A stretch of DNA of 64,000 bases from a bacterium (GCA_021831595.1 JAKBMK010000025.1:63114-127113); one strand, 5' to 3'; shown: positions 9,009-60,971, counted from the stretch's first letter. A program made the numbers and translations. Notes: generated from the letters alone by a model not told the origin.

Positions 9009-9074
9009 TAAGCAGTAGGTAGTAAGGTTTAGGTCTTGCTACTTCCTACGTATTTCTTACACATAATTATAATT

Positions 9075-9980
9075 ATGGCAAATAGGCACCTTTCACGTTC
9101 AATTGTTCTTCAGACACTCTTTGAGTGGGATTTTGGAGTAGAAAAAGACACTAAGTCTGAAGACATGTTAGCTCGAAATATAGAAGAATTTGGACCAGGT
9201 CTTGATGACTCGCATTTTATGAGCGAGTTATTTTTAGGTGTTACAAAGAAGAAAGCGATTATCGATGAGATTATAGAGAAAGCTGCACCAGATTGGCCTA
9301 TCGATAAGATTTCTGCTATTGATAGAAATATTCTTCGTCTAGGATTGTACGAACTTCTTTTTGGAGATAGAGAGCAGGTGCCTCCTAAGGTTGCTATCAA
9401 TGAAGCTATAGAACTCGCCAAAAGTTTCGGCGGAGAGAATTCTAGCCGTTTTATAAACGGAGTACTCGGTGGTGTCTATAAAGAAATAGGTGAACCAGGC
9501 AAAGACGATGTAAGTTCTCATAAAAAGCATAAACATTTTGAAACAGATCCATCCAAGTTTCCAATAGAAAAGAAAGCCGGAGCCGTCGTATATGCAAAAC
9601 ATGACGGTGATATATATTTTGCTTTTGTTCATGATGTTTTTGGTTATTGGACCCTCTCAAAAGGTAGTATAGAAGATGGAGAAAATGAAGAGCAAGGCGC
9701 AGTACGTGAAATAAAAGAAGAAATGGGGGTTGATATAAAAATCAAAGAACTTCTTGGGCGTAGTGAATACATAGCAACGCACCCAGAGAATGGAAAGATC
9801 CGCAAGCAAGTAGTATTCTTCTTGGGAGAGACACAATATGGAGATTTGGTACTTGAAAAGGGTAGTGGTGGTCTTGATGACGCAAAGTGGTTTAAGATGG
9901 AAGAAGTTGCAGGACTCAAAATGTACGATAATATGGTGCCACTTCTCACAAAAGCTGTAGAAATTTTAACAAAAGAATAG
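9075..9980 (+). CDS. nusB: NusB (N-terminal) fused to a Nudix hydrolase domain (C-terminal)
   Basis: N-terminus: DRNILRLGLYELLF..VPPKVAINEAIELAKSFGGENSSRFINGVLGGV (NusB). C-terminus: GSIEDGENEEQGAVREIKEEMGVDI (perfect Gx5Ex7REUxEExGU). The ORF-track start 9036 is a TTG; ATG 9075 is preferred. Confidence 0.8.
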   Translation: MANRHLSRSIVLQTLFEWDFGVEKDTKSEDMLARNIEEFGPGLDDSHFMSELFLGVTKKKAIIDEIIEKAAPDWPIDKISAIDRNILRLGLYELLFGDREQVPPKVAINEAIELAKSFGGENSSRFINGVLGGVYKEIGEPGKDDVSSHKKHKHFETDPSKFPIEKKAGAVVYAKHDGDIYFAFVHDVFGYWTLSKGSIEDGENEEQGAVREIKEEMGVDIKIKELLGRSEYIATHPENGKIRKQVVFFLGETQYGDLVLEKGSGGLDDAKWFKMEEVAGLKMYDNMVPLLTKAVEILTKE

Positions 9981-10000
9981 TATAAGTTCTCACAAATTTT

Positions 10001-10696
10001 ATGATTGATTTTTCCTTATTTGAAAAAAAGACAAATATAGTTTTCAAAGATAAGAAGCTCTTAGAACAAGCTTTTATTCATCGTTCATATATAAATGAAA
10101 GTAGTGGCACCAAATTATCCCATAATGAGCGCTTAGAATTTTTGGGTGATGCAGTTTTAGAGCTCGTTGTTACGGATCATTTATATGGCAAATACCCTGA
10201 TCGTGACGAAGGTGAATTGACGGCCTATAGATCTGCTCTTGTGAACGCTGTGATTATCGGTGAAGTAGCTCTTGCTCTCGGAATGAATGATTATCTATTG
10301 TTATCGAAAGGTGAAGCAAAAGATATAGGCAAAGCTCGCAGCTATATATTGGCAAATACTTACGAAGCTTATGTAGGAGCAGTTTATTTAGACCAAGGAT
10401 ATAATGTTGCTCGTGATTTTATAGCAGAGTCTCTCTTTGGAAAGATAGATGGTATTGTAAAGCAAAAATTGTGGAGAGATGCAAAAAGTTTGGTTCAAGA
10501 AAAATCTCAAGAATATATAAATATTACACCCTCGTATAAGGTTATCAATGAAGCAGGTCCTGATCACGACAAGAATTTCACAGTTGGAATATTCTTTGGG
10601 GGAGACTTGATAGCAGAAGGTAAGGGTCACAGTAAGCAAGAAGCCGAACAATCTGCTGCGCGAAAAGCATTAGAAGTTAAAGAGTGGCTTGATTAA
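10001..10696 (+). CDS. rnc: ribonuclease III
   Basis: ERLEFLGDAVLELVVTDHLY RNase III signature plus C-terminal dsRBD. Confidence 0.9.
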   Translation: MIDFSLFEKKTNIVFKDKKLLEQAFIHRSYINESSGTKLSHNERLEFLGDAVLELVVTDHLYGKYPDRDEGELTAYRSALVNAVIIGEVALALGMNDYLLLSKGEAKDIGKARSYILANTYEAYVGAVYLDQGYNVARDFIAESLFGKIDGIVKQKLWRDAKSLVQEKSQEYINITPSYKVINEAGPDHDKNFTVGIFFGGDLIAEGKGHSKQEAEQSAARKALEVKEWLD

Positions 10697-12976: not shown

Positions 12977-12978
12977 CC

Positions 12979-13001
12979 AGATAGGGGTTCAACCCCTATC
13001 T
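12979..13001 (+). terminator. palindromic hairpin AGATAGGGG-ttcaa-CCCCTATCT after smc (member of a 2-copy family, see 17358-17384)
   Basis: Read directly: 9-bp stem, 5-nt loop, followed by an A/T run. Confidence 0.5.
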
Positions 13002-13033
13002 AGAAAATTTTTATAATAGAAAGGTTATTTTTA

Positions 13034-13062
13034 TTGACTTTTATGTATTTTTATGATATAAT
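13034..13062 (+). promoter_or_regulatory. consensus sigma70 promoter TTGACT-17-TATAAT
   Basis: Exact hexamers with 17-nt spacer, ~55 nt upstream of the 13117 ORF. Confidence 0.55.
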
Positions 13063-13116
13063 ATGGCAAATTTAGATGCAAAATAAAAAAATTAAATCTA
13101 TAAAATAAATTTTAAA

Positions 13117-13590
13117 TTGGCAGTCATGAAAAAAATTATTTTGTTATTTGTTTTTATGGTTTTTTCTTTAACCTTCACTCGCGCACAACATGGTTATTAT
13201 AAATTTGACCAGAGAGCTACTTATGTCAGTGGCTTTGATGGCAAAAAACCACTGAAGAAGGATACAATGGTAGAAGTTACAGAAGTGTTCTCGAATGGTA
13301 TAAGAACTATTTCTGAACCATATCAGGCTTATAAAGGTGAGACTGAAAAAACTTTTTTGAAAAGAATTCATACAAAAGATTCTCTTGCTATAAGCAAAAA
13401 ACTTTCTGTTATGGATTCTCTTATAAAAGAAGTTTATGAGGAGGATCGCCTGGCTAAAAAAGTCAAAGAAAAAAAGGCCTTGGAGGGTACAGAAAATGTA
13501 TTGGTAGGTGCGGCTATAGTTTTCCTACTAATGTTCATTTTTGCATTAGCAGAAATTGTTCATCGTTTGATGAACCGTGGAAAGAAATAG
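13117..13590 (+). CDS. hypothetical secreted/membrane-anchored protein (N-terminal signal peptide, C-terminal TM helix)
   Basis: MKKIILLFVFMVFSLTFTRA signal-like N-terminus. C-terminal hydrophobic LVGAAIVFLLMFIFALAEIV then RLMNRGKK. Confidence 0.45.
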   Translation: MAVMKKIILLFVFMVFSLTFTRAQHGYYKFDQRATYVSGFDGKKPLKKDTMVEVTEVFSNGIRTISEPYQAYKGETEKTFLKRIHTKDSLAISKKLSVMDSLIKEVYEEDRLAKKVKEKKALEGTENVLVGAAIVFLLMFIFALAEIVHRLMNRGKK

Positions 13591-27831: not shown

Positions 27832-29169
27832 ATGATAAAAAAACTTAAACAAAAAACAAAAAAGATTGTATTGAAAAAGAAAGCTGTTGTGAAAAAAGCA
27901 GTTAAAAAATCTGTAGCTAAAAAGCCAGTTAAGAAAGCTCTCAAGATGAAAAAAATTGCTAAAAAAACTACCAAGAAGGTGATAAAAAAAGTGGCAAAAA
28001 AGATAACTAAAAACAATAAGAGTAAGGCTAAAAAGGTAGTTTCCAAACCAAAAGTAAGACGAATGTCTGCTTCTAAGAAAGAGCAACTAGAAAAGAAACA
28101 ATTAGATCAAGAAGCAAAGTCTCTACAAATGATAGAGAAGGGTAAGAAGAGAGGCTTTGTGACGTATGATGAAATAATAAAAGAATTTCCTGATATAGAA
28201 ACAGATATACTTTTCCTCGACGAATTATATGAGCGTTTTGCTGTCGCTGGAATCGATGTTCTAGAAGGTGGTAATTTGCTCGATGTGACTGGAGATGTAG
28301 AGAAATTAGCTCTCAAATATAGTAAAGATGCCAAGACCTATGATTCTATTCAAATGTATTTGAAGGAGATAGGTCAGTATCCTCTAATTGCTGCAAATGA
28401 AGAGAGGGATTTGGCAAAGAGAATTGAGAAGGGGGATGTCGAAGCCAAGAATCTTCTTGCTCGTGCAAACTTGCGTTTGGTTGTCTCTATTGCTAAAAAA
28501 TATGTAGGGAGAAGTTCTGATTTAACACTACTTGATCTGATACAAGAAGGTAATTTAGGTTTGTTTAAGGCTGTTGAAAAATTTGACTGGACAAAAGGAT
28601 ATAAGTTTTCAACTTATGCTACCTGGTGGATTCGCCAATCAATCACTCGTGCTCTAGCCGACCAGTCTCGAACAATTCGTATCCCTGTTCACATGGTAGA
28701 AACTATTTCTAAATATAAACAAGTAGTACGTCGTCTTTCTCAAGATTTGGGACGTGAACCGTTAGTAGAAGAGATTGCAATGGAAATGAATTTGGAAGTA
28801 GAGAAAATCCATGTTATCGAGCAGATTAATCAGGAAACCGTCTCTCTAGAGCAACCAATAGGAGATGATGACGATAAGTCAACAAGAGGAGAATTCATTC
28901 CGGATGACAAGATTCTTCGTCCAGATCAAGACTCTTCTCGTAGAATTCTGTCTGATCAAATTAAAGAAGTACTCGATACTCTATCTCCAAAGGAAAGAAA
29001 AATATTGGAACTTCGTTATGGTCTTACAGATGGAGTGCAACACACTCTTGAAGAAGTAGGACAAGATTTTGGGGTCACTCGTGAGCGTATTCGTCAGATT
29101 GAAGCCAAGGTCCATGAGAAGCTTCGTAATAATGAAAAGATAGCGAGATTAAAGAATTATTTTGATTAA
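27832..29169 (+). CDS. rpoD: RNA polymerase sigma-70 factor with ~95-aa lysine-rich histone-H1-like N-terminal tract
   Basis: Regions 1.2-4.2 conserved ([54 protein letters not shown]). N-terminus [23 protein letters not shown]... Classic dnaG-rpoD order. Confidence 0.9.
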
Positions 29170-49151: not shown

Positions 49152-50597
49152 TTAAAACAAAGAATAAATGGCGGCGATAGCAGTAACTCCCATAAATATA
49201 GTTGTGACCCATCCGATAATATTGCTAATGCGTGAATTTTTGTAGTGGCCCATTATTTTATGGTTACTACTTATATGGACAATGAAGATAAGAATTACAG
49301 GAGCGACTATTCCATTTGCTATAGCAGAATATATTAGAGCCTTTATAGGATCAATACCTATAAGATTTATGAGTATCCCTATAATAACTGAAATTGCGAT
49401 GATACCATAGAAAGCTCTTGCTTCTTTGAGTTTGTGATAAAGACCTTCTTTCCATCCGAAACTTTCAGATATAGCATATGAAGCTGATCCAGCGAGGACG
49501 GGGATAGCAAGCATACCTGTGCCTATAATACCAATAGCAAAGAGTGTGGTGGCCCAACGGCCTGCAAATGGAGCAAGAGCGAGAGCCGCATCATTGGCCG
49601 TCCCTATATTTGTAATTCCATTTTTAAATAGAACACTTGAACAGACAGCTATAATGAAGAACATTACGAGATTTGAAAGAAACATTCCTGTCCAGACATC
49701 TTTTCTCATTTGTTTTATTTCCATAGGGTTTGTTCCTCTTCTTTGGTGTACAGTTTTTTTACCTTCTTTAATTTCTTCTTCTACTTCTTGTGATGTCTGC
49801 CAGAAGAATAAGTAAGGGGAGATAGTTGTTCCCAAGATTCCAGTAATTAGAAGTATTTGAGTTTTAGAAAAAGTTATATCGGGAATGATCAAACTTTTTG
49901 CTAAGCTAGACCAGTCCATGTTAATTATCAAACCAGTAATAATGTATGAGAAGAGAGATATGACTAACCACTTCAGATACTTACTATATTCTTGATATGG
50001 TACGAATATTTGCAAAACTAAACCTAAGATACCGAACCCTATAACAAGGGTAAAGAATGGAAAAGATGGGATTATAAGTTGTAATTCTTTTGCCATAGCA
50101 CCTAAGTCTGCTCCTATGTTTAAAGTATTGGCTGTGAATAAGAGTATTGTACAGATATATAATATTTTTCTTGAGTATAAATGTTTTATATTAGCGGCAA
50201 GTCCTTTACCTGTAACGAGGGCTATACGAGCACACATTTCCTGGATGACTGCCATAAGAGGGAAAGTCCAAGCCGCGAGCCATATCAGAGAATTACCATA
50301 CTGGGCTCCTGTTTGTGAGTATGTGGCTATGCCAGAAGGATCATCGTCTGCAGCCCCTGTCACAAGACCTGGCCCTAGCTTCTCTATATATTCTTCTCCT
50401 TCTCTTATATATTTTTCACCTTTTTCAAGTAGAGATTCTTTTTTCTCTATTAGTTTTTCTTCCTCTTCTAATAGTGTTTCTTTCTGATCTATTAGTTTTT
50501 CTTCTTGTTTAATTACCGATTCTTTTTCTTCGATTAATTTCTTCTCTTCTATTAAAGTTTCCTGTAGGTCTTTTGGACTTATTGGTTTTTTTGTCAT
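49152..50597 (-). CDS. mntH: Nramp-family divalent metal transporter (MntH-like) with repetitive acidic coiled N-terminal extension
   Basis: GPGLVTGAADDDPSGIATYSQTGAQYG (Nramp TM1 DPGN-type motif) and about 11 TM segments. N-terminal ~70 aa EEKKLIEEKESVIKQEEKLIDQKETLLEEEEKLIEKKESLLEKGEKYIREGEEYIEK. Confidence 0.75.
   Translation of the reverse strand: MTKKPISPKDLQETLIEEKKLIEEKESVIKQEEKLIDQKETLLEEEEKLIEKKESLLEKGEKYIREGEEYIEKLGPGLVTGAADDDPSGIATYSQTGAQYGNSLIWLAAWTFPLMAVIQEMCARIALVTGKGLAANIKHLYSRKILYICTILLFTANTLNIGADLGAMAKELQLIIPSFPFFTLVIGFGILGLVLQIFVPYQEYSKYLKWLVISLFSYIITGLIINMDWSSLAKSLIIPDITFSKTQILLITGILGTTISPYLFFWQTSQEVEEEIKEGKKTVHQRRGTNPMEIKQMRKDVWTGMFLSNLVMFFIIAVCSSVLFKNGITNIGTANDAALALAPFAGRWATTLFAIGIIGTGMLAIPVLAGSASYAISESFGWKEGLYHKLKEARAFYGIIAISVIIGILINLIGIDPIKALIYSAIANGIVAPVILIFIVHISSNHKIMGHYKNSRISNIIGWVTTIFMGVTAIAAIYSLF
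50395..50597 (-). repeat. imperfect ~36-bp tandem repeats encoding the EEKxLIExKES heptad/dodecad repeats of the Nramp N-terminus
   Basis: Plus-strand ctattagtttttcttc(c/t)t.. units seen 4-5 times. Confidence 0.5.
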
Positions 50598-50687: not shown

Positions 50688-52070
50688 ATGGCACTAAACA
50701 AACCAAACAAAATTCAAATAATCAAATATGCTCCGCCACCACCAGATCTCCCAACTCTGGGTCGTGTTGATCCGAGCGATGTTGTTTTTATCGGGCGTAC
50801 TAATTATGTAGCTTCTCTTGAAGAGAAGAGATTTGTCTTTGGTATCAAGCGTATAGATCGTAGGCGCCACATGTATATAATAGGCAAGTCTGGTATAGGC
50901 AAGTCTAAACTTCAAGAATTAATGATTCGCCAAGATATCGCTTATGGTCATGGTGTTTGCGTTATAGACCCTCATGGAGAACTCATAGAAGATATATTGA
51001 ATTTTATTCCAGAAGACAGGATTAACGATGTTTGTATAATAGACCCAGGAGATGTTGAATATCCTTCATCTTTTAATTTACTATCAAATATAGACTCAAC
51101 GTTCAAGCATCAGCTAACACAAGGACTCATAGAAGTTTTACGAAAACAGTTTGGTTCAAACTGGACCCCGCGATTGGAACACGTTTTCCGTTTTACCGTA
51201 TTAGCCTTACTCGACTATCCTGATGCTACTATGCGTGGAATGATTTCTATGCTTACTGATCGTAATTATCGTCAGAAGGTAGTGGAATATATAGAGGACG
51301 ATATGGTCAAGAGATTCTGGGCTGTCGAATTCGCTGATTGGTCTGAGAAATTTGATACTGATGCAATTATCCCTTTGGTCAACAAGCTTGGGCAGTTCCT
51401 TTCTGATCCGATGCTTCGAAATATTTTTGGACAAAAAGAAAACAAAATAGATTTAGAAAAAATAATGAATGAACAAAAAATTCTTTTAATTAATCTTTCG
51501 AAAGGGAAGATTGGCGAGGAGAATTCTTCTTTCCTTGGATCAATGATTCTAACAAAGATAAAACAAGCAGGAATGGCTCGTGCTAAAAGTGAATCTAAAG
51601 ATCTTGTGGATTTCTATCTATATATAGATGAATTCCACAATATAGTGACCGATACTTTTGAAAATATTTTATTAGAAGCTCGTAAATACGGGATCAATCT
51701 TATTATTGCTCACCAGTACATGGCACAACTTCTACCTAAAATTCAACAATCAGTACTTGGGAATGTGGGCTCGATAGTCACATTTAGAGTTGGAGGGGAT
51801 GATGCCACAAAACTAAAACCAGAGTTTGCTCCAGTTTTTGATGTCAAAGACATGATTAATCTTGGTGTAGGTGAATTTTATCTGAAGATGACAATAGACG
51901 GAGAAAGCTATGATCCATTCTCTGGTGAGACTCTTCGTGTTCTTCCTGCAACTCATCCTTCTTATAAAGATAAAGTAGTAGCAGCCTCACGTAGCAAATA
52001 TTCTATAAAAGCAGAAGAAGCCACTAGATTAATCGCCGAAGAAGAATCTAATAGTATCAAGAATTCTTAG
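50688..52070 (+). CDS. soluble FtsK/HerA-superfamily P-loop ATPase, type-IV coupling protein (TraD/VirD4/TraG)-like, paralog 1
   Basis: Walker A IIGKSGIGKS, VIDPHGEL, Walker B YLYIDEFHN, ARKYGINLIIAHQYMAQL (resembles T4CP R-YG---Q----QL). No N-terminal TM. Confidence 0.55.
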   Translation: MALNKPNKIQIIKYAPPPPDLPTLGRVDPSDVVFIGRTNYVASLEEKRFVFGIKRIDRRRHMYIIGKSGIGKSKLQELMIRQDIAYGHGVCVIDPHGELIEDILNFIPEDRINDVCIIDPGDVEYPSSFNLLSNIDSTFKHQLTQGLIEVLRKQFGSNWTPRLEHVFRFTVLALLDYPDATMRGMISMLTDRNYRQKVVEYIEDDMVKRFWAVEFADWSEKFDTDAIIPLVNKLGQFLSDPMLRNIFGQKENKIDLEKIMNEQKILLINLSKGKIGEENSSFLGSMILTKIKQAGMARAKSESKDLVDFYLYIDEFHNIVTDTFENILLEARKYGINLIIAHQYMAQLLPKIQQSVLGNVGSIVTFRVGGDDATKLKPEFAPVFDVKDMINLGVGEFYLKMTIDGESYDPFSGETLRVLPATHPSYKDKVVAASRSKYSIKAEEATRLIAEEESNSIKNS

Positions 52071-52199
52071 ATATATTTTAATATTTGAGGAAATAAAAAT
52101 TTATTGAGCTTAAGTCTCTCTTTGGCTTTTCTATTTACAAAACGGCTAAAGATAGTAGAATTATGGGGTAGGTCGTTTAATTAATTTTCTCATATATTT

Positions 52200-52505
52200 A
52201 TGGTATTTATATACACAACATGTGAAAATATGGACGAAGCAAAGAAGCTTGGAAGCCTTATTATTGGTAAGAAAATAGCGGCTTGTGTTGACTTTTGGCC
52301 TATCTCATCTTGCTATAACTGGAAAGGGGGTCTTCAGTGTGTAGAACAAGCGATGCTTTTAATTACCACCTTTGAGGCTAAACTAGAAGATGTGAATCAG
52401 ATTATTTCTGAGAATCATACTTATAGTGTTCCTCTTATTGCTGGCGTTGACGTTCGTCGTATAAATCATCCATATAAGGAGTGGATGATGAAGGAGATTA
52501 TATAA
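52200..52505 (+). CDS. cutA: divalent-cation tolerance protein CutA
   Basis: MVFIYTTCEN..EAKKLGSLIIGKKIAACVDFWPISSCYNWKGGLQ...LLITTFEAKLEDVNQIISENHTYSVPLIAG matches the CutA1 family. Confidence 0.75.
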   Translation: MVFIYTTCENMDEAKKLGSLIIGKKIAACVDFWPISSCYNWKGGLQCVEQAMLLITTFEAKLEDVNQIISENHTYSVPLIAGVDVRRINHPYKEWMMKEII

Positions 52506-52506
52506 T

Positions 52507-52923
52507 ATGAATTCAAAAAAAATTTTAATCTTTGGAGTATTTGATGGTATACACGAAGGTCACAACCATTTCATAAACGAAGCAAAAACACATGGCAATC
52601 ATCTTGTGGCTATTGTCGCACGTGATAGTATTGTAGAAAAAATCAAAGGCAAAGTTCCAGTAGAAAATGAAGTTGAACGAATCAAAAATCTTTTAGAAAA
52701 TAAAGAGGTTGATTTAGTGCTATTAGGTGATGCAGAATTGGGCACTTATAATGTACTGAGGGAAGTAGCACCAGATCTTATATTTCTAGGTTATGACCAG
52801 AATGAACTACATAAAGATTTGAAAAATAAAATGAAAAGTGGATATTTAAAAGAAGTAGAGATAAAAGTAGGAGCTCCTTATAAGGGAGATGAATTACATT
52901 CTTCAATTTTAAACAAAAAATAA
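52507..52923 (+). CDS. cytidylyltransferase-fold nucleotidyltransferase, archaeal-type FAD synthetase (RibL)-like
   Basis: GVFDGIHEGH (HxGH), AIVARDSIVEKIKGK, LIFLGYDQNE resemble RibL/TagD-family motifs. Confidence 0.55.
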   Translation: MNSKKILIFGVFDGIHEGHNHFINEAKTHGNHLVAIVARDSIVEKIKGKVPVENEVERIKNLLENKEVDLVLLGDAELGTYNVLREVAPDLIFLGYDQNELHKDLKNKMKSGYLKEVEIKVGAPYKGDELHSSILNKK

Positions 52924-52949
52924 CAGGGCCAATGCTAGCCCTGTATTTT

Positions 52950-53423
52950 TTATTCTCGCCATTTACGCAGTAATGGAATTATCGTAATAGAGGTTATGAT
53001 AACCTCGCTCAGAGAATAGCCAACTTCTGGCCAGCTCCAATCTTTTGCGTCACAAGTTGCAATAATACTAGCAGCTAGAAAAAATGAGTATCCTACTAAA
53101 TTATATTTTGCAACAGGATTCAGAAATGTTTTTATTGCTAAGTAAATTCCCACTATAGATTCAGATACAACTCCTAAAACTACAGCTTCGTAGGGGCCTT
53201 CTATGACCCAAGCTCCACCACTTATCATGATGAGGATGATTATCATAACCTCCAACCATTTTAAGGTGTTTCTTTTTTGATATAGAAGAATGATAAACAT
53301 CAAGAATGAGCAGATAGCAGACCCGAATAATATTTGATATCCACCACCACCCTTTTTCAAACTAGCTTCTATCGTAGCAAACATGAGAATTGTATCTAAT
53401 AGGAAATACAAGAACCATGTCAA
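52950..53423 (-). CDS. hypothetical polytopic membrane protein (about 5 TM)
   Basis: Hydrophobic segments only. Confidence 0.4.
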   Translation of the reverse strand: MTWFLYFLLDTILMFATIEASLKKGGGGYQILFGSAICSFLMFIILLYQKRNTLKWLEVMIIILIMISGGAWVIEGPYEAVVLGVVSESIVGIYLAIKTFLNPVAKYNLVGYSFFLAASIIATCDAKDWSWPEVGYSLSEVIITSITIIPLLRKWRE

Positions 53424-53659
53424 AGCTACCTGGCTTTCATCATTCTTTGTTTTAAGAATTCCTTTGATAAGGAATCCAAAAGAAGTAATTGTCAGTCAGA
53501 AAATAGTCCAGTCAACTAATGACATTTCTAAAATTGTTTTCATGGTACAAAATTTAATGATTATTCATATAAACGATAATCCTATAAGTATAGATTGTCA
53601 ATATTATAGTATTTAACCCTTTTTTATTTGAAAGATTTAGGGTACAATAGGATTAATAT

Positions 53660-55747
53660 ATGGAAAATGAAATTCCACACAATAGGGACATAACTTATTT
53701 TGCTAAGACGAACTTTCGTAGTAGTAATGCTATTTTTGGCATAAAAAGAAAGGACCGCCGCCAGCATATGTATGTTCTCGGGAAATCAGGTACTGGTAAA
53801 TCTGTACTTCTCTCTAACCTTATTGTTCAAAATATTCAAAATGGAGAAGGTGTCTGTGTTGTTGACCCGCACGGTGAACTTGTAGAAGAAATTCTTCATC
53901 TTATTCCTGATCATAGAGCTAAAGATGTTATCTACTTTAATCCAGCCGATACAGACTTTCATATTGGGTTCAATGTTATTCAACTCGATGATCCAAAGTA
54001 CAAACACTTGGTGGCTTCAGGCCTCATGGGAATCTTTACAAAGATTTGGGCTAACGCTTGGAGTTCTCGTATGGAGTACATTTTGAACAACGCTATTCTT
54101 GCCTTGCTTGATACACCAGGGACGACTCTTCTAGGAATCCCTCGTCTTCTTGTCGACAAGGATTATCGTCAGATGATAATAGGTAACTTGAAGGATCCTG
54201 TGGTCAAAGCTTTCTGGGTACATGAGTATGAGCAATGGCGTGAGCAATTCAGAAATGAAGCTATCGCTCCTATTCAGAACAAGGTTGGTCAATTCCTTTC
54301 AACTTCTATTATTCGTAATGTTGTTGGTCAACCAAAATCCACCATTGATATCTTCAAAATAATGAACGAAGGAAAAATTTTCCTTGTGAATGTTTCAAAA
54401 GGACGTATTGGTGAGGATAACTCTGCACTTCTTGGAGGTATGATTATTACGAAGATTCAGCTTGCTGCCATGGAACGTGTGCGTATACCTGAAGAAGAAA
54501 GAAAAGACTTTTATCTATATGTCGACGAATTCCAAAATTTTGCAACTGACTCTTTTGCCAATATTCTTTCTGAAGCTCGAAAGTATCGTCTGAACCTTAC
54601 TGTTGCTCACCAGTACACAGCTCAGCTTGAAAACAAAGATGGTTCTAAAGTTCGCGATGCTGTCTTTGGTAACGTGGGGACAATGATTATATTCAGGGTT
54701 GGAGCTGATGATGCAGATTTCTTGGAAAAAGAATTTGAACCGGAATTTATGGCTCAGGATTTAGTTAATTTGCCGAACTACAATGTCTATCTAAAACTTA
54801 TGATTGATGGTGTAACTAGTCGACCTTTTTCTGCTATTACTTTGCCGCCAATAAAAGTTGATGCGACTTCGGGCGTGAAAGATAAAATTATCGAATCATC
54901 TCGTAAGCTTTATACTCGTTCTAGAAAAGAAGTAGAGGATGATATTGCCAAATGGAGTGGAATGCTTCAAATAGGAGAGGGCGAAGCTAAATACAAGGCT
55001 GATTGTTCTAACTGTAAGAAAAGTACGATGGTTCCTTTTGAACCAAAAGATGGTCGTCCTGTCTATTGCAAAGAATGTATGTTTAAAATCAAGAATGGTG
55101 AATTGAAGCCTGAAAGTGGATTTATCGCTTCGCGATCTTCTCGCCAAGAAGAAAAAGCTTCTACTGCACCACTTGCAGCTCTTGGTATTGAATTTGGAGT
55201 TACAGATAATGATTTTAGAATCTCAAAAAATCACGATCAAGTTAAATCTTCCAACGGTAACCACAATCACAATCATAATAGTCATAACCACAATAACCAT
55301 TCTGTAAAAAATGACAAGAAACATGCAGGCCCCTCACCACTTCTCAAGGGATTACTTGAAAAGATAGGTATAAACAACAGGGGAAGTATTTCGACAGATA
55401 AGATAGAGGCAAAGGAAGTAAAGAAAGAAGTTCCAGCTCCTATCTCTCTTTCTTCTCTTAAAAAAGATACACATGATAATCATAAAGTTGATCATACAAT
55501 TCCAACAAAAGAAGCTTCAGATGAGAAGAAAGCTTCATTGAAAGATTTACTTACAAAAACAGCGCATAATCATAATCATGAGATTAAAGAAGAAAAAACT
55601 CCAATAGTTAAAACCGAAGAGAAGGACCCTGAATCAAAAGTTATTACACCACAGGAACCAGATACAAAAACCAATACTGATTCTTGGCAAAAGCATAAAA
55701 CAAAGAAAGAAGTTCCTGAGGATGTACTCCGTAAAGTCTTAGAATAA
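53660..55747 (+). CDS. FtsK/HerA-superfamily ATPase paralog 2 (T4CP-like) with C-terminal CxxC..CxxC zinc ribbon and His/Lys-rich low-complexity tail
   Basis: Same motif set as 50688 (VLGKSGTGKS, VVDPHGEL, YLYVDEFQN, ARKYRLNLTVAHQYTAQL). Then CSNCKKSTMVPFEPKDGRPVYCKECMF and NGNHNHNHNSHNHNNH / HNHNHE tracts. Confidence 0.55.
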   Translation: MENEIPHNRDITYFAKTNFRSSNAIFGIKRKDRRQHMYVLGKSGTGKSVLLSNLIVQNIQNGEGVCVVDPHGELVEEILHLIPDHRAKDVIYFNPADTDFHIGFNVIQLDDPKYKHLVASGLMGIFTKIWANAWSSRMEYILNNAILALLDTPGTTLLGIPRLLVDKDYRQMIIGNLKDPVVKAFWVHEYEQWREQFRNEAIAPIQNKVGQFLSTSIIRNVVGQPKSTIDIFKIMNEGKIFLVNVSKGRIGEDNSALLGGMIITKIQLAAMERVRIPEEERKDFYLYVDEFQNFATDSFANILSEARKYRLNLTVAHQYTAQLENKDGSKVRDAVFGNVGTMIIFRVGADDADFLEKEFEPEFMAQDLVNLPNYNVYLKLMIDGVTSRPFSAITLPPIKVDATSGVKDKIIESSRKLYTRSRKEVEDDIAKWSGMLQIGEGEAKYKADCSNCKKSTMVPFEPKDGRPVYCKECMFKIKNGELKPESGFIASRSSRQEEKASTAPLAALGIEFGVTDNDFRISKNHDQVKSSNGNHNHNHNSHNHNNHSVKNDKKHAGPSPLLKGLLEKIGINNRGSISTDKIEAKEVKKEVPAPISLSSLKKDTHDNHKVDHTIPTKEASDEKKASLKDLLTKTAHNHNHEIKEEKTPIVKTEEKDPESKVITPQEPDTKTNTDSWQKHKTKKEVPEDVLRKVLE

Positions 55748-55751
55748 TTTT

Positions 55752-57191
55752 ATGATTAACTTTTTTAAAAAACACTTTTATATTTTCACTATAATTGTGT
55801 TTTTTATTTTTGGAGTTTTTAGATTTGCTAATGCGGAGGTGGTTTTTAGCGAAATCGCATGGATGGGTAATTCTGAAAATATAAATGCTGAGTGGTTTGA
55901 GATATATAATAATGGAGAATCTGAAATTGATTTATCAGATTGGTCAATTTCTGGGCTTTTATCTTTTGAAATTCCTTCTGGAAAAACTATCCCTGCTGGC
56001 AAATATTTTATTTTTGGTAGACAGCCAGTAAGTGGGGTTTATACTTATATACCAAATTTTACACCTGATTTAATATATAAAGGAGCACTCAGTAACTCTG
56101 GAGGAACTTTAAACTTAAATGATAAAAATGGCAATCAAAAAAGTAGTGTAACTTATGATGGCAAAATAGGCGATAATGAAACAAAGGAAACGATGCAGTG
56201 GGATGGTAGCAAGTGGTTTACTGCTTCGCCAACTCCAGGAGGAGGAAGTATTTCTAATAATACCGAAAAAGTACAAGATAATAATATTGGTGCAGAGAAT
56301 AATACTTCAAACATATCAACTTCAAGTTCCAGCAATGAAAAATCTCAAGTAGAATATAAAATAGCTACCAAAATTATTTCTCCGAAAATAGTTACTGCTG
56401 GAGTGCCTTTTGATGTGGATCATAATACTACAGGGCTCAAGAAAGAGAAGATAATTTTAGGAAAATTTATTTGGAACTTTGGAGATGGTAGACAAAAACA
56501 ATTATCGGTATCAGATCCATTTATTTATGTTTACGATTATCCAGGAGAATATGTTTTAACTCTTTCGTATTATGATTCTAATTTTGATACAAAACCAGAT
56601 GCGACGGATAGAGTGACGATAAAGGTCGTTCCTTCAGGGGTTGTTATAAGTTCAGTGGGGACATCTTCAGACCCGTATGTAGAAGTAGAAAATAAATCTG
56701 GGTATGAGATGCTACTTTCTGGGTGGGTATTAAAGGGAAGTGCACATTCTTTCGTTGTCCCAGATGGTATGATTCTTCTTCCAAACAAGAAATTAAAATT
56801 GTCTCCCAAAATTACTGGTTTTGACTTTAATGATTTGAATTTTATTGAGATTGTAGATCAACAAGGGCAAGTATTTACAACTTATCCAAACAAGAAGACA
56901 AATATCTATAGATATTCTGAAAATAAAAATATAGATGAGAACGTAATTAAAAGTAATTATATAGAAAATAAGGAGATAAAAGAAGGGAAGGAAATTATAA
57001 ACTTGAATGATCTTTCAGCTAGTGTTGGTGGAGCAGATAGTGGTTTATACAATAAAACTTTAATATACTTTGGCCTTGCAGGAATAATAATAATTGGGGT
57101 CTTAAGCATAATTTTCATTCGCAAGAAAACTGATTACCCAGACTATATCGAGAAAGAAATTTCTGTGGGTGATATGACGATTATAGAATAA
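55752..57191 (+). CDS. secreted, C-terminally membrane-anchored protein with two lamin-tail domains (LTD) flanking a PKD-like domain
   Basis: Signal peptide. EIAWMGNSENINAEWFEIYNNGESEIDLSDWSI...SNSGG (LTD). WNFGDGRQ...YVYDYPGEYVLTLSYYD (PKD-like). Second LTD (YVEVENKSGYEMLLSGWVLKG). C-terminal TM IIIIGVLSIIFIRKK. Confidence 0.6.
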   Translation: MINFFKKHFYIFTIIVFFIFGVFRFANAEVVFSEIAWMGNSENINAEWFEIYNNGESEIDLSDWSISGLLSFEIPSGKTIPAGKYFIFGRQPVSGVYTYIPNFTPDLIYKGALSNSGGTLNLNDKNGNQKSSVTYDGKIGDNETKETMQWDGSKWFTASPTPGGGSISNNTEKVQDNNIGAENNTSNISTSSSSNEKSQVEYKIATKIISPKIVTAGVPFDVDHNTTGLKKEKIILGKFIWNFGDGRQKQLSVSDPFIYVYDYPGEYVLTLSYYDSNFDTKPDATDRVTIKVVPSGVVISSVGTSSDPYVEVENKSGYEMLLSGWVLKGSAHSFVVPDGMILLPNKKLKLSPKITGFDFNDLNFIEIVDQQGQVFTTYPNKKTNIYRYSENKNIDENVIKSNYIENKEIKEGKEIINLNDLSASVGGADSGLYNKTLIYFGLAGIIIIGVLSIIFIRKKTDYPDYIEKEISVGDMTIIE

Positions 57192-57209: not shown

Positions 57210-57980
57210 ATGAATAATAAGAATAAAAAAGATACTTCATGGAATAGTGTGGCGAGCTGGTATGATGAATTGCTTAAGGAGGACGATAGCTATCAAGCAA
57301 AAGTTGTACTTCCAAATTTGCTTCGTGTGCTTGATTTAAAAAAAGGGGAGAAAGTTTACGATCTTGCTTGTGGGCAAGGATACTTCGCAAATGTTTTTGC
57401 GCATATGGGAGCAGAAGTTACTGCTTCTGATCTTTCTAAGAATCTTATAGAAACTGCAAAGAAAAATTCAAAAGAGAAAGTTAATTTCTATATAACTCCT
57501 GCACATAGAGCGCAATTCTTGAAAGATAATACTATTGATACTATTGTGATTGTTTTGGCGGTTCAAAACATAGAGAATGTAAATGAAGTACTAGTAGAAT
57601 GTAAAAGAGTATTGAAAAAGGAAGGAAGGATAGTTCTGGTACTTAATCATCCAGCATTTAGAATTCCGCAAGCAAGCGATTGGTACTTTGCAGATGGGGT
57701 GCAGTCTCGTATTATCAGCCAGTATCTTTCTCCTTCAAAGATTTATATAGACATGACTCCAGGAGAGAAGAATCCAAAGAAAAAGATAAAAACAATTTCT
57801 TTCCATCGTTCACTTCAGGACTATATGAAAGTCTTTTCCAAGAATGGATTTGCTATTACACGTCTCGAAGAGTGGATTTCGCACAAGCAAAGCGGTGCAG
57901 GTCCCAGACAGCTTGCCGAAGACAAAGCCCGCAAAGAAATACCAATGTTTATGTGTGTGGAAATTAAAAAATTAGGATAA
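57210..57980 (+). CDS. class I SAM-dependent methyltransferase
   Basis: VYDLACGQGYF (motif I), acidic residue, VIVLAVQNI. Confidence 0.8.
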   Translation: MNNKNKKDTSWNSVASWYDELLKEDDSYQAKVVLPNLLRVLDLKKGEKVYDLACGQGYFANVFAHMGAEVTASDLSKNLIETAKKNSKEKVNFYITPAHRAQFLKDNTIDTIVIVLAVQNIENVNEVLVECKRVLKKEGRIVLVLNHPAFRIPQASDWYFADGVQSRIISQYLSPSKIYIDMTPGEKNPKKKIKTISFHRSLQDYMKVFSKNGFAITRLEEWISHKQSGAGPRQLAEDKARKEIPMFMCVEIKKLG

Positions 57981-59453: not shown

Positions 59454-60971
59454 CTATTTCAATATTTTTATATCTGCTCCAATTTTGTTTAGACGTTCGG
59501 CGATTTCTTCATATCCGCGATTGATCATGTAGACATTGCGAAGGATAGAAGTACCATTTGCTCCGAGCATGCCAATAAGAATTATCATGGCCGGACGGAG
59601 AGCTGGAGGGCAGACAACTTGAGCTGGCTTTAATGTTGTGCCGCCCTGGATATAAACTCTGTGTGGGTCGGCGAGGGTGATGCTTGCTCCTAAACGATTA
59701 AGCTCGGTAAAATATATTGCACGATTCTCATATACCCAGTCATGGATCATTGTCTGACCTTTAGCTTTTATGGCGATAGGTACGAAGAACGGAAGATTAT
59801 CCATATTTATACCAGGATATGGGAGAGCATGAATTTTATCTTCTAATGCTGTGAGTTTTGATGGGAGGATTTTGATATCCACTAGGTTTGTCCTACCATT
59901 ATATGATTTGTAGATTTTAGATAATTTATATTTAAGTCCCATTCTCTTCAATTTTTCAAGTTCTAGTGAAAGGAAGTCGATAGGCGAGCGGGTAATAGTG
60001 AGCTCTGAGTCTGTAGTTATAGCAGCCGATATGAACATCATAGATTCGATAGGGTCCTCACTATTCGTATACTCAACATCTATATTGATATCTTTCACTC
60101 CATGGATGATAAGTGTACTTGTGCCTATACCATCAATTTTCACACCAAGCTTTTCAAGGAAAAAGCAGATTTCTTGCACCATGTAGTTGGCACTTGCAAA
60201 TCTGATAGTTGTTGTGTCGTTTATTCTTGCTACTGCAGTGAGTATATTTTCGCAGGCTGTATCTCCAGCTTCGTACATGACAATGTCAGCTCCCTTTAAT
60301 TTTTTACTTTCTATTTGATAGGCACTATTTGTTGTTTTGATCTTTACCCCTAAATCCTCTAGTGCATAAGTATGAGCAGAAATAGTACGCTTACCAAGCT
60401 TACACCCAGAAGCATGAGGGATCGAAAATGAAGGCAAGAGATGAATAAGTGGGCCAATAAGCATTATGACTGAGCGGGTCTTGATTGCAGATTCGACATT
60501 TATCTTATCCATTTTAAACTCTTTAGGTGGAGTTATTATCAAAGAGTTTTTATCAATCCACTTCACAGAAACGCCGATACTTTCTATTATTTCTATGACT
60601 CTGTTTACTTCTTCGATACGAGCGATACCATGGAGAGTTGTCTTGCCACGATTGAGCAGGGAAGCGCATAGGAGTCCTACTGCTCCATTTTTAGAGAAGT
60701 TGGTGGCTATACTTCCATGCAATTTCTTGCCACCATTTATCTGGAAATCGATGGAATTATTTATTGATACTATCTGGTGTTCGAGCACTTCACTTATCTT
60801 GCTTAATATCTCAGTACTGAAATTCTGTTCACCTTTCTCCATTCTTGCGACAGCTGATTGCGACGTCTCAAGTGCCTTAGCGAAAGAGTCTTGGGTCATT
60901 CCTCTGCGTTCACGAAGTTCCTTTATAAAAATACCTATTTTTTGTTGATCTGTTTGTTTCATACTAGTCAT
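59454..60971 (-). CDS. murA: XRE-family HTH domain fused to UDP-N-acetylglucosamine 1-carboxyvinyltransferase (MurA)
   Basis: Residues 1-70: LRERRGMTQDSFAKALETSQSAVARMEKGEQN (HTH_XRE). Remainder aligns along full-length MurA (INGGKKLHGSIATNFSKNGAVGLL..., Cys loop HASGCKLGKRTISAH, C-terminal NRGYEEIAERLNKIGADI). Confidence 0.85.
   Translation of the reverse strand: MTSMKQTDQQKIGIFIKELRERRGMTQDSFAKALETSQSAVARMEKGEQNFSTEILSKISEVLEHQIVSINNSIDFQINGGKKLHGSIATNFSKNGAVGLLCASLLNRGKTTLHGIARIEEVNRVIEIIESIGVSVKWIDKNSLIITPPKEFKMDKINVESAIKTRSVIMLIGPLIHLLPSFSIPHASGCKLGKRTISAHTYALEDLGVKIKTTNSAYQIESKKLKGADIVMYEAGDTACENILTAVARINDTTTIRFASANYMVQEICFFLEKLGVKIDGIGTSTLIIHGVKDINIDVEYTNSEDPIESMMFISAAITTDSELTITRSPIDFLSLELEKLKRMGLKYKLSKIYKSYNGRTNLVDIKILPSKLTALEDKIHALPYPGINMDNLPFFVPIAIKAKGQTMIHDWVYENRAIYFTELNRLGASITLADPHRVYIQGGTTLKPAQVVCPPALRPAMIILIGMLGANGTSILRNVYMINRGYEEIAERLNKIGADIKILK

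What the first reader, a model, noticed from the sequence alone, without database searches (positions are those of the whole stretch)
50688..57191. Accessory-looking block: two paralogous soluble T4CP-like ATPases bracketing cutA and a RibL-like gene, followed by an LTD surface protein
ORFs 50688-52070 and 53660-55747 are paralogs with a FtsK/HerA-superfamily P-loop, VxDPHGE, hhhhDEF and R-KYG-NL--AHQY--QL motifs. These are reminiscent of conjugative coupling proteins (TraD/VirD4/TraG), but both lack the N-terminal membrane anchor. They flank cutA, a RibL-like cytidylyltransferase, and a reverse-strand 5-TM protein. They are immediately followed by a signal-peptide, C-terminally anchored LTD-PKD-LTD surface protein. 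In an otherwise housekeeping window this is the one block that looks like a dedicated machine, possibly a DNA/protein translocation or surface-interaction system without a canonical T4SS scaffold. No VirB4, VirB6 or relaxase is present in the window.
Basis: partly seen in the sequence, partly recalled or inferred. Interest (0 to 1): 0.65.

Follow-up and report, generated by a model that had tools for sequence, protein, structure and literature searches.

The report
Core split coupling-protein ATPases of Patescibacteria
The two ATPases are real, but they are near-universal, extremely conserved core genes of ultrasmall Patescibacteria (already catalogued as orphan type IV coupling-protein homologues), not an accessory machine, and their usual membrane partner (DUF8128) is missing from this window.

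Summary
ORFs 50688-52070 (A, 460 aa) and 53660-55747 (B, 695 aa) are paralogues (46% identity) with intact Walker motifs and no transmembrane segment. They pass Pfam thresholds for T4CP domains, and the model of A folds like TrwB, Cagbeta and HerA.

- The block is not accessory. Composition and synteny match the housekeeping flanks, and A and B are more conserved than Ddl, MurB or UDG.
- cutA, the nucleotidyltransferase gene, the 5-TM ORF and the LTD protein are not conserved neighbours (0-2 of 80 loci across Patescibacteria).

The pair is therefore a split, membrane-docked coupling-protein-type motor. In this lineage it is duplicated and separated from its anchor. Orthologues of both are listed as 'T4CP, not near virB4' in a 2025 survey. 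The substrate and any dependence on a T4SS are unknown.

The parts
50688..52070 (+). ATPase-A: 460-aa T4CP-like P-loop ATPase with no TM segment. It belongs to a distinct paralogue clade.
   Evidence: ORF. Pfam PF10412, PF01935, PF02534 and PF12696 are all above their cut-offs. Orthologues are 81-91% identical. AF2 model: pLDDT 76, pTM 0.80. Foldseek: TrwB E 2e-11, then Cagbeta, HerA and DotL. The A-type forms a clade of 10 sequences in an NJ tree.
50724..50753 (+). N-terminal K-Y-A-P-P-P-P-D-L-P peptide of ATPase-A. It is the same motif that ends DUF8128 (KKxxPPxNLP) and that sits at the junction of fused DUF8128-ATPase proteins.
   Evidence: A-type N-termini and 61 DUF8128 C-termini are compared. 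The junction of fused protein P0270 is shown. The Embleya T4CP junction is aligned by hhalign.
50883..50906 (+). Walker A of ATPase-A (GKSGIGKS).
   Evidence: Read from the sequence. These columns are invariant in alignment A1.
51612..51635 (+). Walker B of ATPase-A (FYLYIDEF).
   Evidence: Read from the sequence. D314, E315 and F316 are invariant in A1.
53660..55747 (+). ATPase-B: 695-aa T4CP-like ATPase (aa 1-440), then a zinc finger and a disordered K/E/S/N/H-rich tail. It is the near-universal Patescibacteria orthologue.
   Evidence: More than 8000 homologues were found, and the best 120 are 72-85% identical over the full length. All 80 species-level loci are at least 57% identical on the best aligned segment. 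Orthologues KKP60588.1 and KKQ44685.1 are listed as 'T4CP, t4cp2, VirB4 proximity No' in PMC12102498 Table S3.
53780..53803 (+). Walker A of ATPase-B (GKSGTGKS).
   Evidence: Read from the sequence. These columns are invariant in A2.
54509..54532 (+). Walker B of ATPase-B (FYLYVDEF).
   Evidence: Read from the sequence. D289 and E290 are invariant in A2.
54992..55087 (+). CxxC-x17-CxxC treble-clef zinc finger in the tail of ATPase-B.
   Evidence: PF23477 at 48 bits and TIGR04272 at 50 bits, both above their cut-offs. The finger is present in roughly 50 of the 80 B-type orthologues and in none of the A-type.
55709..55744 (+). Conserved C-terminal peptide EVPEDVLRKVLE at the end of the disordered tail of ATPase-B. 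It looks like a short docking motif.
   Evidence: Seen in the consensus of A1 and in the C-termini of L004-L009 orthologues. Other lineages carry different conserved terminal motifs.
52200..52505 (+). cutA. A bystander, not part of the system.
   Evidence: PF03091 at 85 bits. A homologue lies within 10 kb of the ATPase in only 1 of 80 loci, L017, where it sits directly upstream of B.
52507..52923 (+). Small cytidylyl/adenylyltransferase-like gene. RibL identity is not established. A bystander.
   Evidence: PF01467 and TIGR00125 are above their cut-offs, but FAD_syn is below its cut-off. A homologue is present in 1 of 80 loci, L016. A terminator-like hairpin lies at 52923-52944.
52950..53423 (-). 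5-TM ORF on the reverse strand. A variable slot and a bystander.
   Evidence: It has 5 hydrophobic segments and no Pfam, NCBIfam or PADLOC hit. It occurs in 0 of 80 loci. L001 has an unrelated secreted protein at this position.
55752..57191 (+). LTD-PKD-LTD surface protein, probably co-transcribed with ATPase-B (4-bp gap). It evolves fast and is a bystander.
   Evidence: Pfam LTD at 80 bits in two stretches. It is 57% identical in L001. Homologues occur in 2 of 80 loci, directly downstream of B only in L068.

Best explanation
A and B are the Patescibacteria versions of the type IV coupling-protein (VirD4/TrwB-type) ring ATPase. They are core genes of the lineage, not an accessory island.

Across the phylum this ATPase is the motor half of a two-part protein. 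The other half is DUF8128. DUF8128 has an N-terminal membrane helix, a cytoplasmic domain with the fold of the N-terminal domain of VirB4, and a flexible tail ending in KKxxPPxNLP. DUF8128 is encoded immediately upstream of the ATPase, usually within a few bases, or is fused to it. The same fused architecture is the coupling protein of an actinobacterial conjugative T4SS cluster.

Inferred mechanism: DUF8128 tethers a presumed hexameric ATPase ring to the cytoplasmic membrane. The ring uses ATP to recruit or feed a macromolecular substrate (nucleic acid or protein) into a membrane channel. The most plausible channel is the lineage's VirB4/TrsD/VirB3/VirB6 T4SS, encoded elsewhere. The zinc finger and the disordered tail with its terminal peptide in B would act as a substrate or adaptor-binding module.

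In the lineage of this window the ATPase has duplicated. Clade A keeps the PPxxLP junction peptide in cis. Clade B has the zinc-finger tail. Both copies now lie away from HTH-DUF8128-SecDF.

cutA, the nucleotidyltransferase gene, the 5-TM ORF and the LTD protein are unrelated neighbours.

Shown here: family assignment, fold, core status, the DUF8128 linkage and fusion, and non-conservation of the neighbours. Inferred: ring assembly, membrane docking, substrate, and T4SS dependence.
For: Family and fold:
- Pfam T4CP domains are above their cut-offs in both proteins.
- The best PDB sequence hit is TrwB, E 5.6e-5.
- Foldseek with the AF2 model of A gives TrwB at E 2e-11 (TM 0.52-0.59), then Cagbeta, DotL and HerA.

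Core status:
- The region is syntenic with its housekeeping flanks.
- A is 88.7% identical in L001, against 56-87% for the other genes of the region apart from CutA at 89%.
- B is 57-65% identical where Ddl, UDG, MurB and EngB are 27-38%.
- T4CP homologues occur in 2,918 of 3,035 Patescibacteria genomes, against VirB4 in 2,417.
- No close relatives were found on plasmids (all below 40% identity) or viral contigs (9 hits, at most 45%).

Partner:
- DUF8128 (PF26449) is directly upstream in 61 of 80 genome loci, with a median gap of 9 bp.
- In the reciprocal scan seeded with DUF8128, 52 of 80 metagenome loci have the ATPase immediately downstream, and about 7 more have it after inserted genes.
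- Roughly 60 of the 150 best cluster representatives are DUF8128-ATPase fusions. P0270 is an example.
- The N-terminal 400 aa of the Embleya plasmid 812-aa T4CP align to DUF8128 by hhalign (probability 91.6%, E 8e-7, 302 columns). That gene sits between a VirB4-like ATPase, PrgI, and Replic_Relax and SLT/NlpC-P60 genes.

Published listing: orthologues of B (KKP60588.1, KKQ44685.1), and the presumed A orthologues 6 genes away, are listed as T4CP hits not near virB4.
Against: - No DUF8128, HTH or SecDF gene is present in the 64-kb window or in the 10 kb upstream, even at relaxed thresholds. So docking through DUF8128 is unproven for this organism.
- The closest relatives, L001 and L004-L009, also lack it nearby.
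- The ATPases are almost never next to virB4 (148 of 5,713). They are more widespread than VirB4. The t4cp of Southlakia was reported as non-essential while the T4SS genes were essential. All three points argue against a simple T4SS coupling role.
- It is not known whether the Southlakia t4cp gene belongs to this family.
- Scores against curated NCBIfam T4CP equivalogs are far below their cut-offs: 53-55 bits against 250-650.
- The DUF8128-VirB4 similarity is structural only. A sequence search of PDB found nothing. The aligned region of TrwK was not printed, so 'N-terminal domain' is inferred from the absence of any RecA-type ATPase among the hits.
- Nothing here identifies the substrate.
Confidence: 0.6

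Rival explanations
1. Exapted housekeeping translocase. The DUF8128-ATPase module no longer serves a T4SS. It is an autonomous, phylum-wide membrane motor for nucleic acid, for example import or handling of host-derived DNA or RNA, or an FtsK-like chromosome function. The upstream HTH protein and the zinc-finger tail would bind nucleic acid.
For: - T4CP homologues are in 96% of genomes against 80% for VirB4, and only 148 of 5,713 lie near virB4. The authors of PMC12102498 themselves say exaptation cannot be ruled out.
- The gene order SecD-SecF-HTH-DUF8128-ATPase-MnmA-AlaRS is conserved in the core genome.
- Sequence conservation far exceeds that of housekeeping enzymes.
- The finger is present in roughly 50 of the 80 B-type orthologues.
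- The adjacent protein carries Sigma70_r4 and HARE-HTH DNA-binding domains.
- Patescibacteria depend on host nucleic acids, and the uptake route is unknown.
Against: - There is no direct evidence for any substrate.
- The closest non-CPR relative with the same architecture is a bona fide conjugative T4CP.
- Genomes carrying the pair usually also carry a T4SS.
- Conserved gene order in tiny genomes is weak evidence of function.
Confidence: 0.3
2. A, B, cutA, the RibL-like gene, the 5-TM protein and the LTD surface protein together form an accessory translocation or surface-interaction machine.
For: - B and the LTD gene are 4 bp apart on the same strand.
- The arrangement is kept in another Nomurabacteria genome.
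- CutA or the transferase gene sits directly upstream of B in L017 and L016. An LTD protein follows B in L068.
Against: - In the 80 loci the neighbours occur as follows: CutA 1, transferase 1, 5-TM 0, LTD 2, Nramp 0.
- The close-relative synteny extends equally over the unrelated housekeeping flanks.
- The 5-TM slot is occupied by an unrelated gene in L001.
- The LTD protein is only 57% identical where A is 89%.
- A terminator-like hairpin separates the cutA unit from the rest.
- Composition is not atypical.
Confidence: 0.04
3. HerA-type helicase or anti-phage defence ATPase, of the kind seen in HerA-NurA, HerA-Sir2, HerA-DUF4297 or MADS systems.
For: - PF01935 (DUF87/HerA) is above its cut-off.
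- HerA structures are among the top Foldseek hits.
- There are weak PADLOC hits to mad8 (43-60 bits) and HerA.
Against: - No nuclease, Sir2 or methylase partner appears among the conserved neighbours.
- The genes are core, near-universal and highly conserved, unlike defence genes.
- T4CP-specific domains (TrwB_AAD_bind, TraG-D_C) are matched, and the partner is VirB4-like.
Confidence: 0.03

Closest known systems
Type IV coupling proteins (TrwB of R388, VirD4, TraD/TraG, Cagbeta, DotL)
   Same: The P-loop nucleotide-binding domain carries an inserted all-helical domain. The Walker A, Walker B and RKY...AHQ...QL motifs are present. Pfam PF10412, PF02534 and PF12696 are matched above their cut-offs. 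The best structural matches have TM 0.5-0.6.
   Different: Identity is only 12-15%, and scores are far below curated NCBIfam cut-offs. The polypeptide has no N-terminal TM domain. The genes are not next to virB4 or a relaxase. They are chromosomal core genes in about 96% of one phylum. B has a zinc finger and a long disordered tail.
Actinobacterial conjugative T4CP with a DUF8128-like N-terminal half (Embleya sp. NBC_00896 plasmid, WP_331738717.1, 812 aa)
   Same: The motor domain is 33% identical. Its N-terminal 400 aa are homologous to DUF8128, including the ...PPxxIP junction. This is the same two-module architecture seen in the fused CPR proteins.
   Different: It is one polypeptide. It is embedded in a T4SS cluster with a VirB4-like ATPase, PrgI, Replic_Relax and a cell-wall hydrolase, on a plasmid. 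In the window the motor is alone and duplicated.
VirB4/TrwK, and the split TrsD + VirB4 arrangement of Patescibacteria T4SS
   Different: The motor domain matches T4CP profiles, not the VirB4 profiles PF19044 or PF03135. The locus differs from the virB4 cluster. No sequence similarity between DUF8128 and VirB4 is detectable.
HerA / FtsK-SpoIIIE translocases
   Same: They share the same ASCE P-loop superfamily and a presumed hexameric ring. HerA is among the top fold hits.
   Different: No FtsK_SpoIIIE Pfam hit was found. There is no NurA-type partner, no FtsK gamma domain and no multi-pass N-terminal membrane domain.

Membership tests
Type IV coupling protein (VirD4/TraD/TraG/TrwB) | Nucleotide-binding domain recognised by T4CP family profiles, with intact Walker A and B motifs | tested here: met
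   PF10412, PF02534 and PF12696 are above their gathering scores in both proteins, and the motifs are intact. Curated NCBIfam equivalog cut-offs are not reached: 53-55 bits against 250-650.
Type IV coupling protein (VirD4/TraD/TraG/TrwB) | TrwB-like fold with an all-alpha domain inserted in the NBD | tested here: met
   The AF2 model of A has a helical block at aa 137-261 between the core strands. Foldseek gives TrwB at E 2e-11 over 420 aligned columns, TM 0.52-0.59.
Type IV coupling protein (VirD4/TraD/TraG/TrwB) | N-terminal transmembrane domain in the same polypeptide | tested here: not met
   There is no hydrophobic segment (KD19 maximum 0.89 for A, 1.23 for B). In relatives the anchor is supplied by the separate or fused DUF8128.
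Type IV coupling protein (VirD4/TraD/TraG/TrwB) | Genomic association with a T4SS (virB4) and/or a relaxase | tested here: not met
   None is present in the window. None appears among the conserved neighbours in 80 loci. Orthologues are flagged 'VirB4 proximity: No' in PMC12102498 Table S3.
Type IV coupling protein (VirD4/TraD/TraG/TrwB) | Recruits substrates to a T4SS channel | not testable with these tools
   This needs genetics or biochemistry.
DUF8128-anchored split T4CP module of Patescibacteria (defined here) | A DUF8128 gene immediately upstream of, or fused to, the ATPase | tested here: not met
   The feature is met in 61 of 80 genome loci and 52 of 80 reciprocal loci. It is absent from this window and from the 10 kb upstream. 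A retains the PPxxLP junction peptide.
DUF8128-anchored split T4CP module of Patescibacteria (defined here) | Orthology of the ATPase domain to the DUF8128-linked ATPases | tested here: met
   B is 57-80% identical (best aligned segment) to the ATPases that follow DUF8128. A clusters with the A-type copies that follow DUF8128 in L010, L016 and L017.
HerA (DUF87) helicase | DUF87/HerA central domain | tested here: met
   PF01935 scores 32 and 38 bits against a cut-off of 23.2.
HerA (DUF87) helicase | Conserved nuclease or effector partner (NurA, Sir2, DUF4297) | tested here: not met
   No such family appears among the recurrent neighbours. PADLOC gives only weak superfamily hits.
FtsK/SpoIIIE | FtsK_SpoIIIE motor domain profile (PF01580) | tested here: not met
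   PF01580 is not among the Pfam hits at E <= 0.01 for either protein.
VirB4 | VirB4 motor profile (PF19044/PF03135) together with a VirB4 N-terminal domain | tested here: not met
   Neither A nor B hits a VirB4 Pfam profile. Only the partner DUF8128, which is absent here, has a VirB4-like fold.

The most novel reading that the evidence does not exclude
DUF8128 plus the T4CP-like ATPase may be a previously undescribed, near-universal and strongly constrained membrane translocation motor of Patescibacteria. It would combine a VirB4-type N-terminal domain with a VirD4-type motor, and could be an evolutionary intermediate between the two T4SS ATPases. It may have been exapted from conjugation to an essential lineage-specific task, such as importing or processing host-derived nucleic acid. 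The A and B paralogues of Paceibacteria would then be specialised subunits.
Probability: 0.2. Interest if true: 0.8.

Novelty: new variant of a known kind. Interest (0 to 1): 0.45.

Why it matters
Patescibacteria make up a large share of bacterial diversity. They live off host cells, and how they move macromolecules across their envelope is largely unknown.

A 2025 survey found about two 'orphan' coupling-protein homologues per genome and could not explain them. This analysis adds four points:
- They are among the most conserved proteins of these genomes.
- They have a dedicated membrane partner, DUF8128, a family that no paper in the searched library mentions.
- The partner has the fold of VirB4.
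- The two halves are one protein in a real conjugation system.

This gives a concrete, testable unit for the people who now have genetic tools for these bacteria. It also bears on how the two T4SS ATPase families are related.

For the window itself the message is sobering.

Tried and rejected
- Accessory island: rejected. Composition is flat, synteny includes the housekeeping flanks, and there are no close plasmid or viral relatives.
- Functional link to cutA, the transferase gene, the 5-TM ORF, LTD or Nramp: rejected by counts in 80 loci.
- The window ORF 27832-29169 as the HTH partner: rejected. It is RpoD, hit only through sigma region 4.
- DUF8128, HTH, SecDF or c24 hidden in the window: six-frame HMM searches found nothing, including relaxed ones for DUF8128 and HTH.
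- Extending the contig: 10 kb upstream shows only housekeeping genes. The downstream look-up failed because that exact protein is not on record.
- Defence system: only weak superfamily hits in PADLOC.
- Sequence link between DUF8128 and any solved structure: none.
- Literature on DUF8128, and on CPR together with DUF87: nothing.
- Wang et al. 2023 main text does not mention VirD4 or VirB4 by name.
- The Southlakia entry is not in the stored part of Table S3. So I could not tell whether the non-essential t4cp belongs to this family.
- Promoter scan: not above chance.


Full report
**1. What is in the sequence**

- ATPase-A: 50688-52070, 460 aa.
- ATPase-B: 53660-55747, 695 aa.
- They are 46% identical over 426 residues, E 2e-134.
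- Both keep the P-loop, the VxDPHGE motif, the Walker B motif FYLY(I/V)DEF and the RKY..NL..AHQY..QL motif.
- Neither has a hydrophobic segment.

Family and domain results for the block:
- Both ATPases exceed the Pfam gathering scores for TrwB_AAD_bind, DUF87, T4SS-DNA_transf and TraG-D_C.
- B also has a CxxC-x17-CxxC treble-clef finger (PF23477/TIGR04272, aa 445-476), followed by a 215-residue K/E/S/N/H-rich tail.
- cutA is confirmed.
- The 'RibL-like' gene is only a generic cytidylyl/adenylyltransferase.
- The reverse ORF has five hydrophobic segments and matches no family.
- The LTD-PKD-LTD protein has a signal-like N-terminus and a C-terminal anchor.

Pfam scans, precomputed labels for the first ~12 kb, and L001 orthologue labels for MurB and Alr show only housekeeping genes in the rest of the window. 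These include PheST, GyrB, ThrRS, RNase III, SMC, RNase R, RpoB/C, DnaG, RpoD, MreBC, Tgt, UvrABC, Ddl, MurA and MurB. No T4SS, pilus or relaxase gene is present.

**2. Organism and conservation**

Homologue searches place the window in Candidatus Nomurabacteria (Paceibacteria, Patescibacteria/CPR).
- B has more than 8000 scored homologues. The best 120 are 72-85% identical over the full length.
- The best 120 homologues of A are 81-91% identical.

In another Nomurabacteria genome (L001, an 800-kb contig) the whole region is syntenic, housekeeping flanks included. Identities there:
- A is 88.7%, level with CutA and above MurA (87%), UDG (85%), Ddl (77%) and MurB (68%).
- The LTD protein is only 57%.
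- The 5-TM ORF has no counterpart. The slot holds an unrelated secreted protein.

GC content is flat across the block. The block is therefore core genome, not an island.

**3. Is the neighbourhood functional?**

A pattern scan of one genome per GTDB species, made with an alignment of diverse representatives, returned 598 confirmed relatives. The 80 best loci span these groups:
- Paceibacteria: Nomura-, Wolfe-, Giovannoni-, Niyogi-, Nealson-, Harrison- and Wildermuthbacteria.
- ABY1: Uhr-, Falkow-, Kerfeld-, Buchanan- and Moranbacteria.
- Doudnabacteria.

All are at least 57% identical to B on the best aligned segment.

I called ORFs in these loci and compared them with the window's genes. Occurrence within 10 kb:
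- CutA in 1 locus.
- The transferase in 1.
- The 5-TM ORF in 0.
- LTD in 2.
- Nramp in 0.

The few exceptions are lineage-local. CutA lies directly upstream of B in L017, the transferase gene does so in L016, and an LTD protein follows B in L068. In those same distant genomes B is 57-65% identical, while Ddl, UDG, MurB and EngB are 27-38%. The 'machine' reading is not supported.

**4. The real conserved context**

De novo clustering of the neighbours revealed a conserved same-strand order: SecD-SecF-HTH-X-ATPase, often followed by MnmA and AlaRS.
- X is a protein of about 460 aa with an N-terminal membrane helix. It lies directly upstream of the ATPase in 61 of 80 loci. The median gap is 9 bp, and 39 of 61 gaps are 20 bp or less.
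- X is Pfam PF26449, DUF8128. No paper in the library mentions it.
- The HTH protein carries Sigma70_r4 and HARE-HTH domains.

The reciprocal scan, seeded with DUF8128 in metagenome contigs, gave these results for 80 loci:
- 52 have the ATPase immediately downstream.
- About 7 more have it after inserted genes.
- 6 end at the contig edge.
- About 12 have HTH-DUF8128 without the ATPase. Uncoupled arrangements therefore exist.

A search of every 50%-identity cluster representative found 6,671 relatives at E < 1e-30. Among the best 150, roughly 60 carry DUF8128 fused in frame to the N-terminus of the ATPase. P0270 is an example...SKRAAAPTNLPIEG-SEEDLTLFAKTNF.... This is a classical gene-fusion ('Rosetta stone') link.

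**5. Structures**

The AF2 model of A has pLDDT 76 and pTM 0.80.
- Foldseek against PDB gives TrwB first (E 2e-11, TM 0.52-0.59), then Cagbeta, DotL and HerA.
- By sequence, the only PDB relative is TrwB at E 5.6e-5.

The AF2 model of DUF8128 has pLDDT 88.6 and pTM 0.86.
- Foldseek's top 13 hits are all TrwK/VirB4.
- DUF8128 has no P-loop, and no RecA-type ATPase appears among its hits. The match must therefore be to the N-terminal domain of VirB4. This is an inference, because the aligned ranges were not printed.
- There is no sequence-level link to any PDB chain.

**6. Link to genuine conjugation systems**

tblastn against 72,556 plasmids found 336 records, all below 40% identity. One is an 812-aa 'T4SS conjugative DNA transfer family protein' on an Embleya plasmid.
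- Its gene lies next to TrbL-like, PrgI (VirB3), VirB4-like (PF19044), Replic_Relax and SLT/NlpC-P60 genes.
- Its N-terminal 400 residues align with DUF8128 by profile comparison (hhalign probability 91.6%, E 8e-7, 302 columns). The alignment includes the terminal ...VPPARIP motif.

The CPR pair is therefore the split form of a monoderm coupling protein whose anchor half resembles VirB4.

**7. The two paralogues**

- In an NJ tree the A-type copies form a clade of exactly 10 sequences, apart from the 78 B-type.
- The two types lie within 10 kb of each other in 10 of 80 loci.
- Where the anchor is retained (L010, L016, L017) the order is HTH-DUF8128-A-(c24)-B.
- DUF8128 ends in a conserved KKxxPPxNLP peptide. 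A-type proteins begin with K-Y-A-P-P-P-P-D-L-P, which is the same junction peptide in cis. B lacks it.
- Roughly 50 of the 80 B-type proteins carry the zinc finger, and no A-type protein does. Tails end in lineage-specific short conserved peptides, EVPEDVLRKVLE in this lineage.
- The window, the 10 kb upstream of it, and the close relatives L001 and L004-L009 contain no DUF8128, HTH or SecDF near the ATPases. In this lineage the motors have been separated from the anchor, or the anchor has been lost. I could not decide which.

**8. What is already known**

Quiñonero-Coronel et al. 2025 (PMC12102498) reported the following:
- 5,713 VirD4-type T4CP homologues in 2,918 of 3,035 Patescibacteria genomes.
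- Only 148 of them lie near virB4.
- VirB4 is present in 2,417 genomes.
- Exaptation 'cannot be ruled out', because the t4cp of Southlakia was not essential.

Orthologues of B (KKP60588.1, KKQ44685.1), and a second T4CP hit six genes away that I take to be A, are in their Table S3 as 'T4CP, profile t4cp2, ~63% coverage, VirB4 proximity: No'. The same genomes also carry a VirB4 homologue elsewhere, and most also carry TrsD, VirB3 or VirB2.

The ATPases themselves are therefore catalogued. The DUF8128 partner, its VirB4-like fold, the fusions and the conserved SecDF-HTH context were not found in the searched literature.

**9. Verdict**

- The T4CP-like assignment is supported.
- The 'accessory machine' interpretation is not supported.

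Most likely mechanism: a ring ATPase of the coupling-protein type is tethered to the membrane by DUF8128. It feeds or recruits a macromolecular substrate to a membrane channel. The zinc-finger tail of B acts as a binding module. Whether the channel is the lineage's T4SS (my preference, about 0.4 within the model) or the motor has been exapted to a T4SS-independent core function (about 0.3) cannot be settled here.

**Caveats**

- ORFs in the loci were called by my own simple script.
- The 80-locus caps favour sequences most similar to the query.
- Several MAG names ('uncultured Gammaproteobacteria/Saccharibacteria') are unreliable.
- Both structures are predictions.

Noticed in passing
L005:12040-13785, L001:6605-8248, and arrays in L004-L007, L016, L017, L051, L060, L091, L096: A family of ~585-aa cysteine-rich proteins ('c24') has an N-terminal zinc ribbon and many CxxC motifs. 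It has no Pfam, NCBIfam or PADLOC hit. Members occur in tandem arrays of 1-7 copies, wedged between DUF8128 and the ATPases or between A and B. L001 has one between A and cutA. The window has none.
   Followed up: partly
L032:56-1129 and equivalents (for example L079:6232-7281): A conserved ~350-aa protein with Sigma70_r4 and HARE-HTH domains lies directly upstream of DUF8128 in 44 of 80 genome loci. It stays with DUF8128 in about 12 metagenome loci that lack the ATPase downstream. Its role is unknown. The window has no orthologue, only RpoD at 27832-29169.
   Followed up: partly
window 59454-60971 (-): A MurA/EPSP-synthase-family enzyme carries an N-terminal XRE-type HTH_3 domain. This is an unusual fusion, and it is 87% identical in L001.
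   Followed up: no
window 55100-55747 (+), tail of ATPase-B: The disordered tail contains a His/Asn tract (HNHNHNSHNHNNH) and ends in the conserved peptide EVPEDVLRKVLE. Other lineages end in LKPGExIKF(D)-like or L(K/R)EALxxAL-like peptides instead.
   Followed up: partly
window 50688-52070 (+), C-terminus: The window's ATPase-A (460 aa) lacks the acidic C-terminal tail ending in ...EAEPMI that most orthologues (480-510 aa) have. Identical 460-aa copies exist on several contigs, so this is not a sequencing error.
   Followed up: partly
window 52923-52944: A bidirectional terminator-like hairpin (9 pairs, with T-runs on both strands) lies between the convergent nucleotidyltransferase gene and the 5-TM ORF. 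It is the only convincing terminator in the block.
   Followed up: no
window 49152-50597 (-): The Nramp transporter has an N-terminal extension of about 70 residues that is E/K-rich and looks like a coiled coil.
   Followed up: no
window 57210-57980 (+): The class I SAM methyltransferase downstream of the LTD gene is absent at this position in the syntenic L001. This is a local indel between close relatives.
   Followed up: no
L124:3274-9245 compared with window 9036-13590: In metagenome locus L124, HTH-DUF8128 follows NusB-like, RNase III and SMC genes. The window has the same three genes, but a 157-aa ORF with no family hit (13117-13590) follows SMC instead.
   Followed up: partly
PMC12102498 Table S3 (Nomurabacteria genomes): The Nomurabacteria genomes read in Table S3 list one or two further T4CP hits of profile 't4cp1' besides the adjacent or near-adjacent 't4cp2' pair. 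One hit, at 75.45% coverage, recurs in most genomes read, including Woesebacteria, and may be a different conserved ATPase such as FtsK.
   Followed up: no
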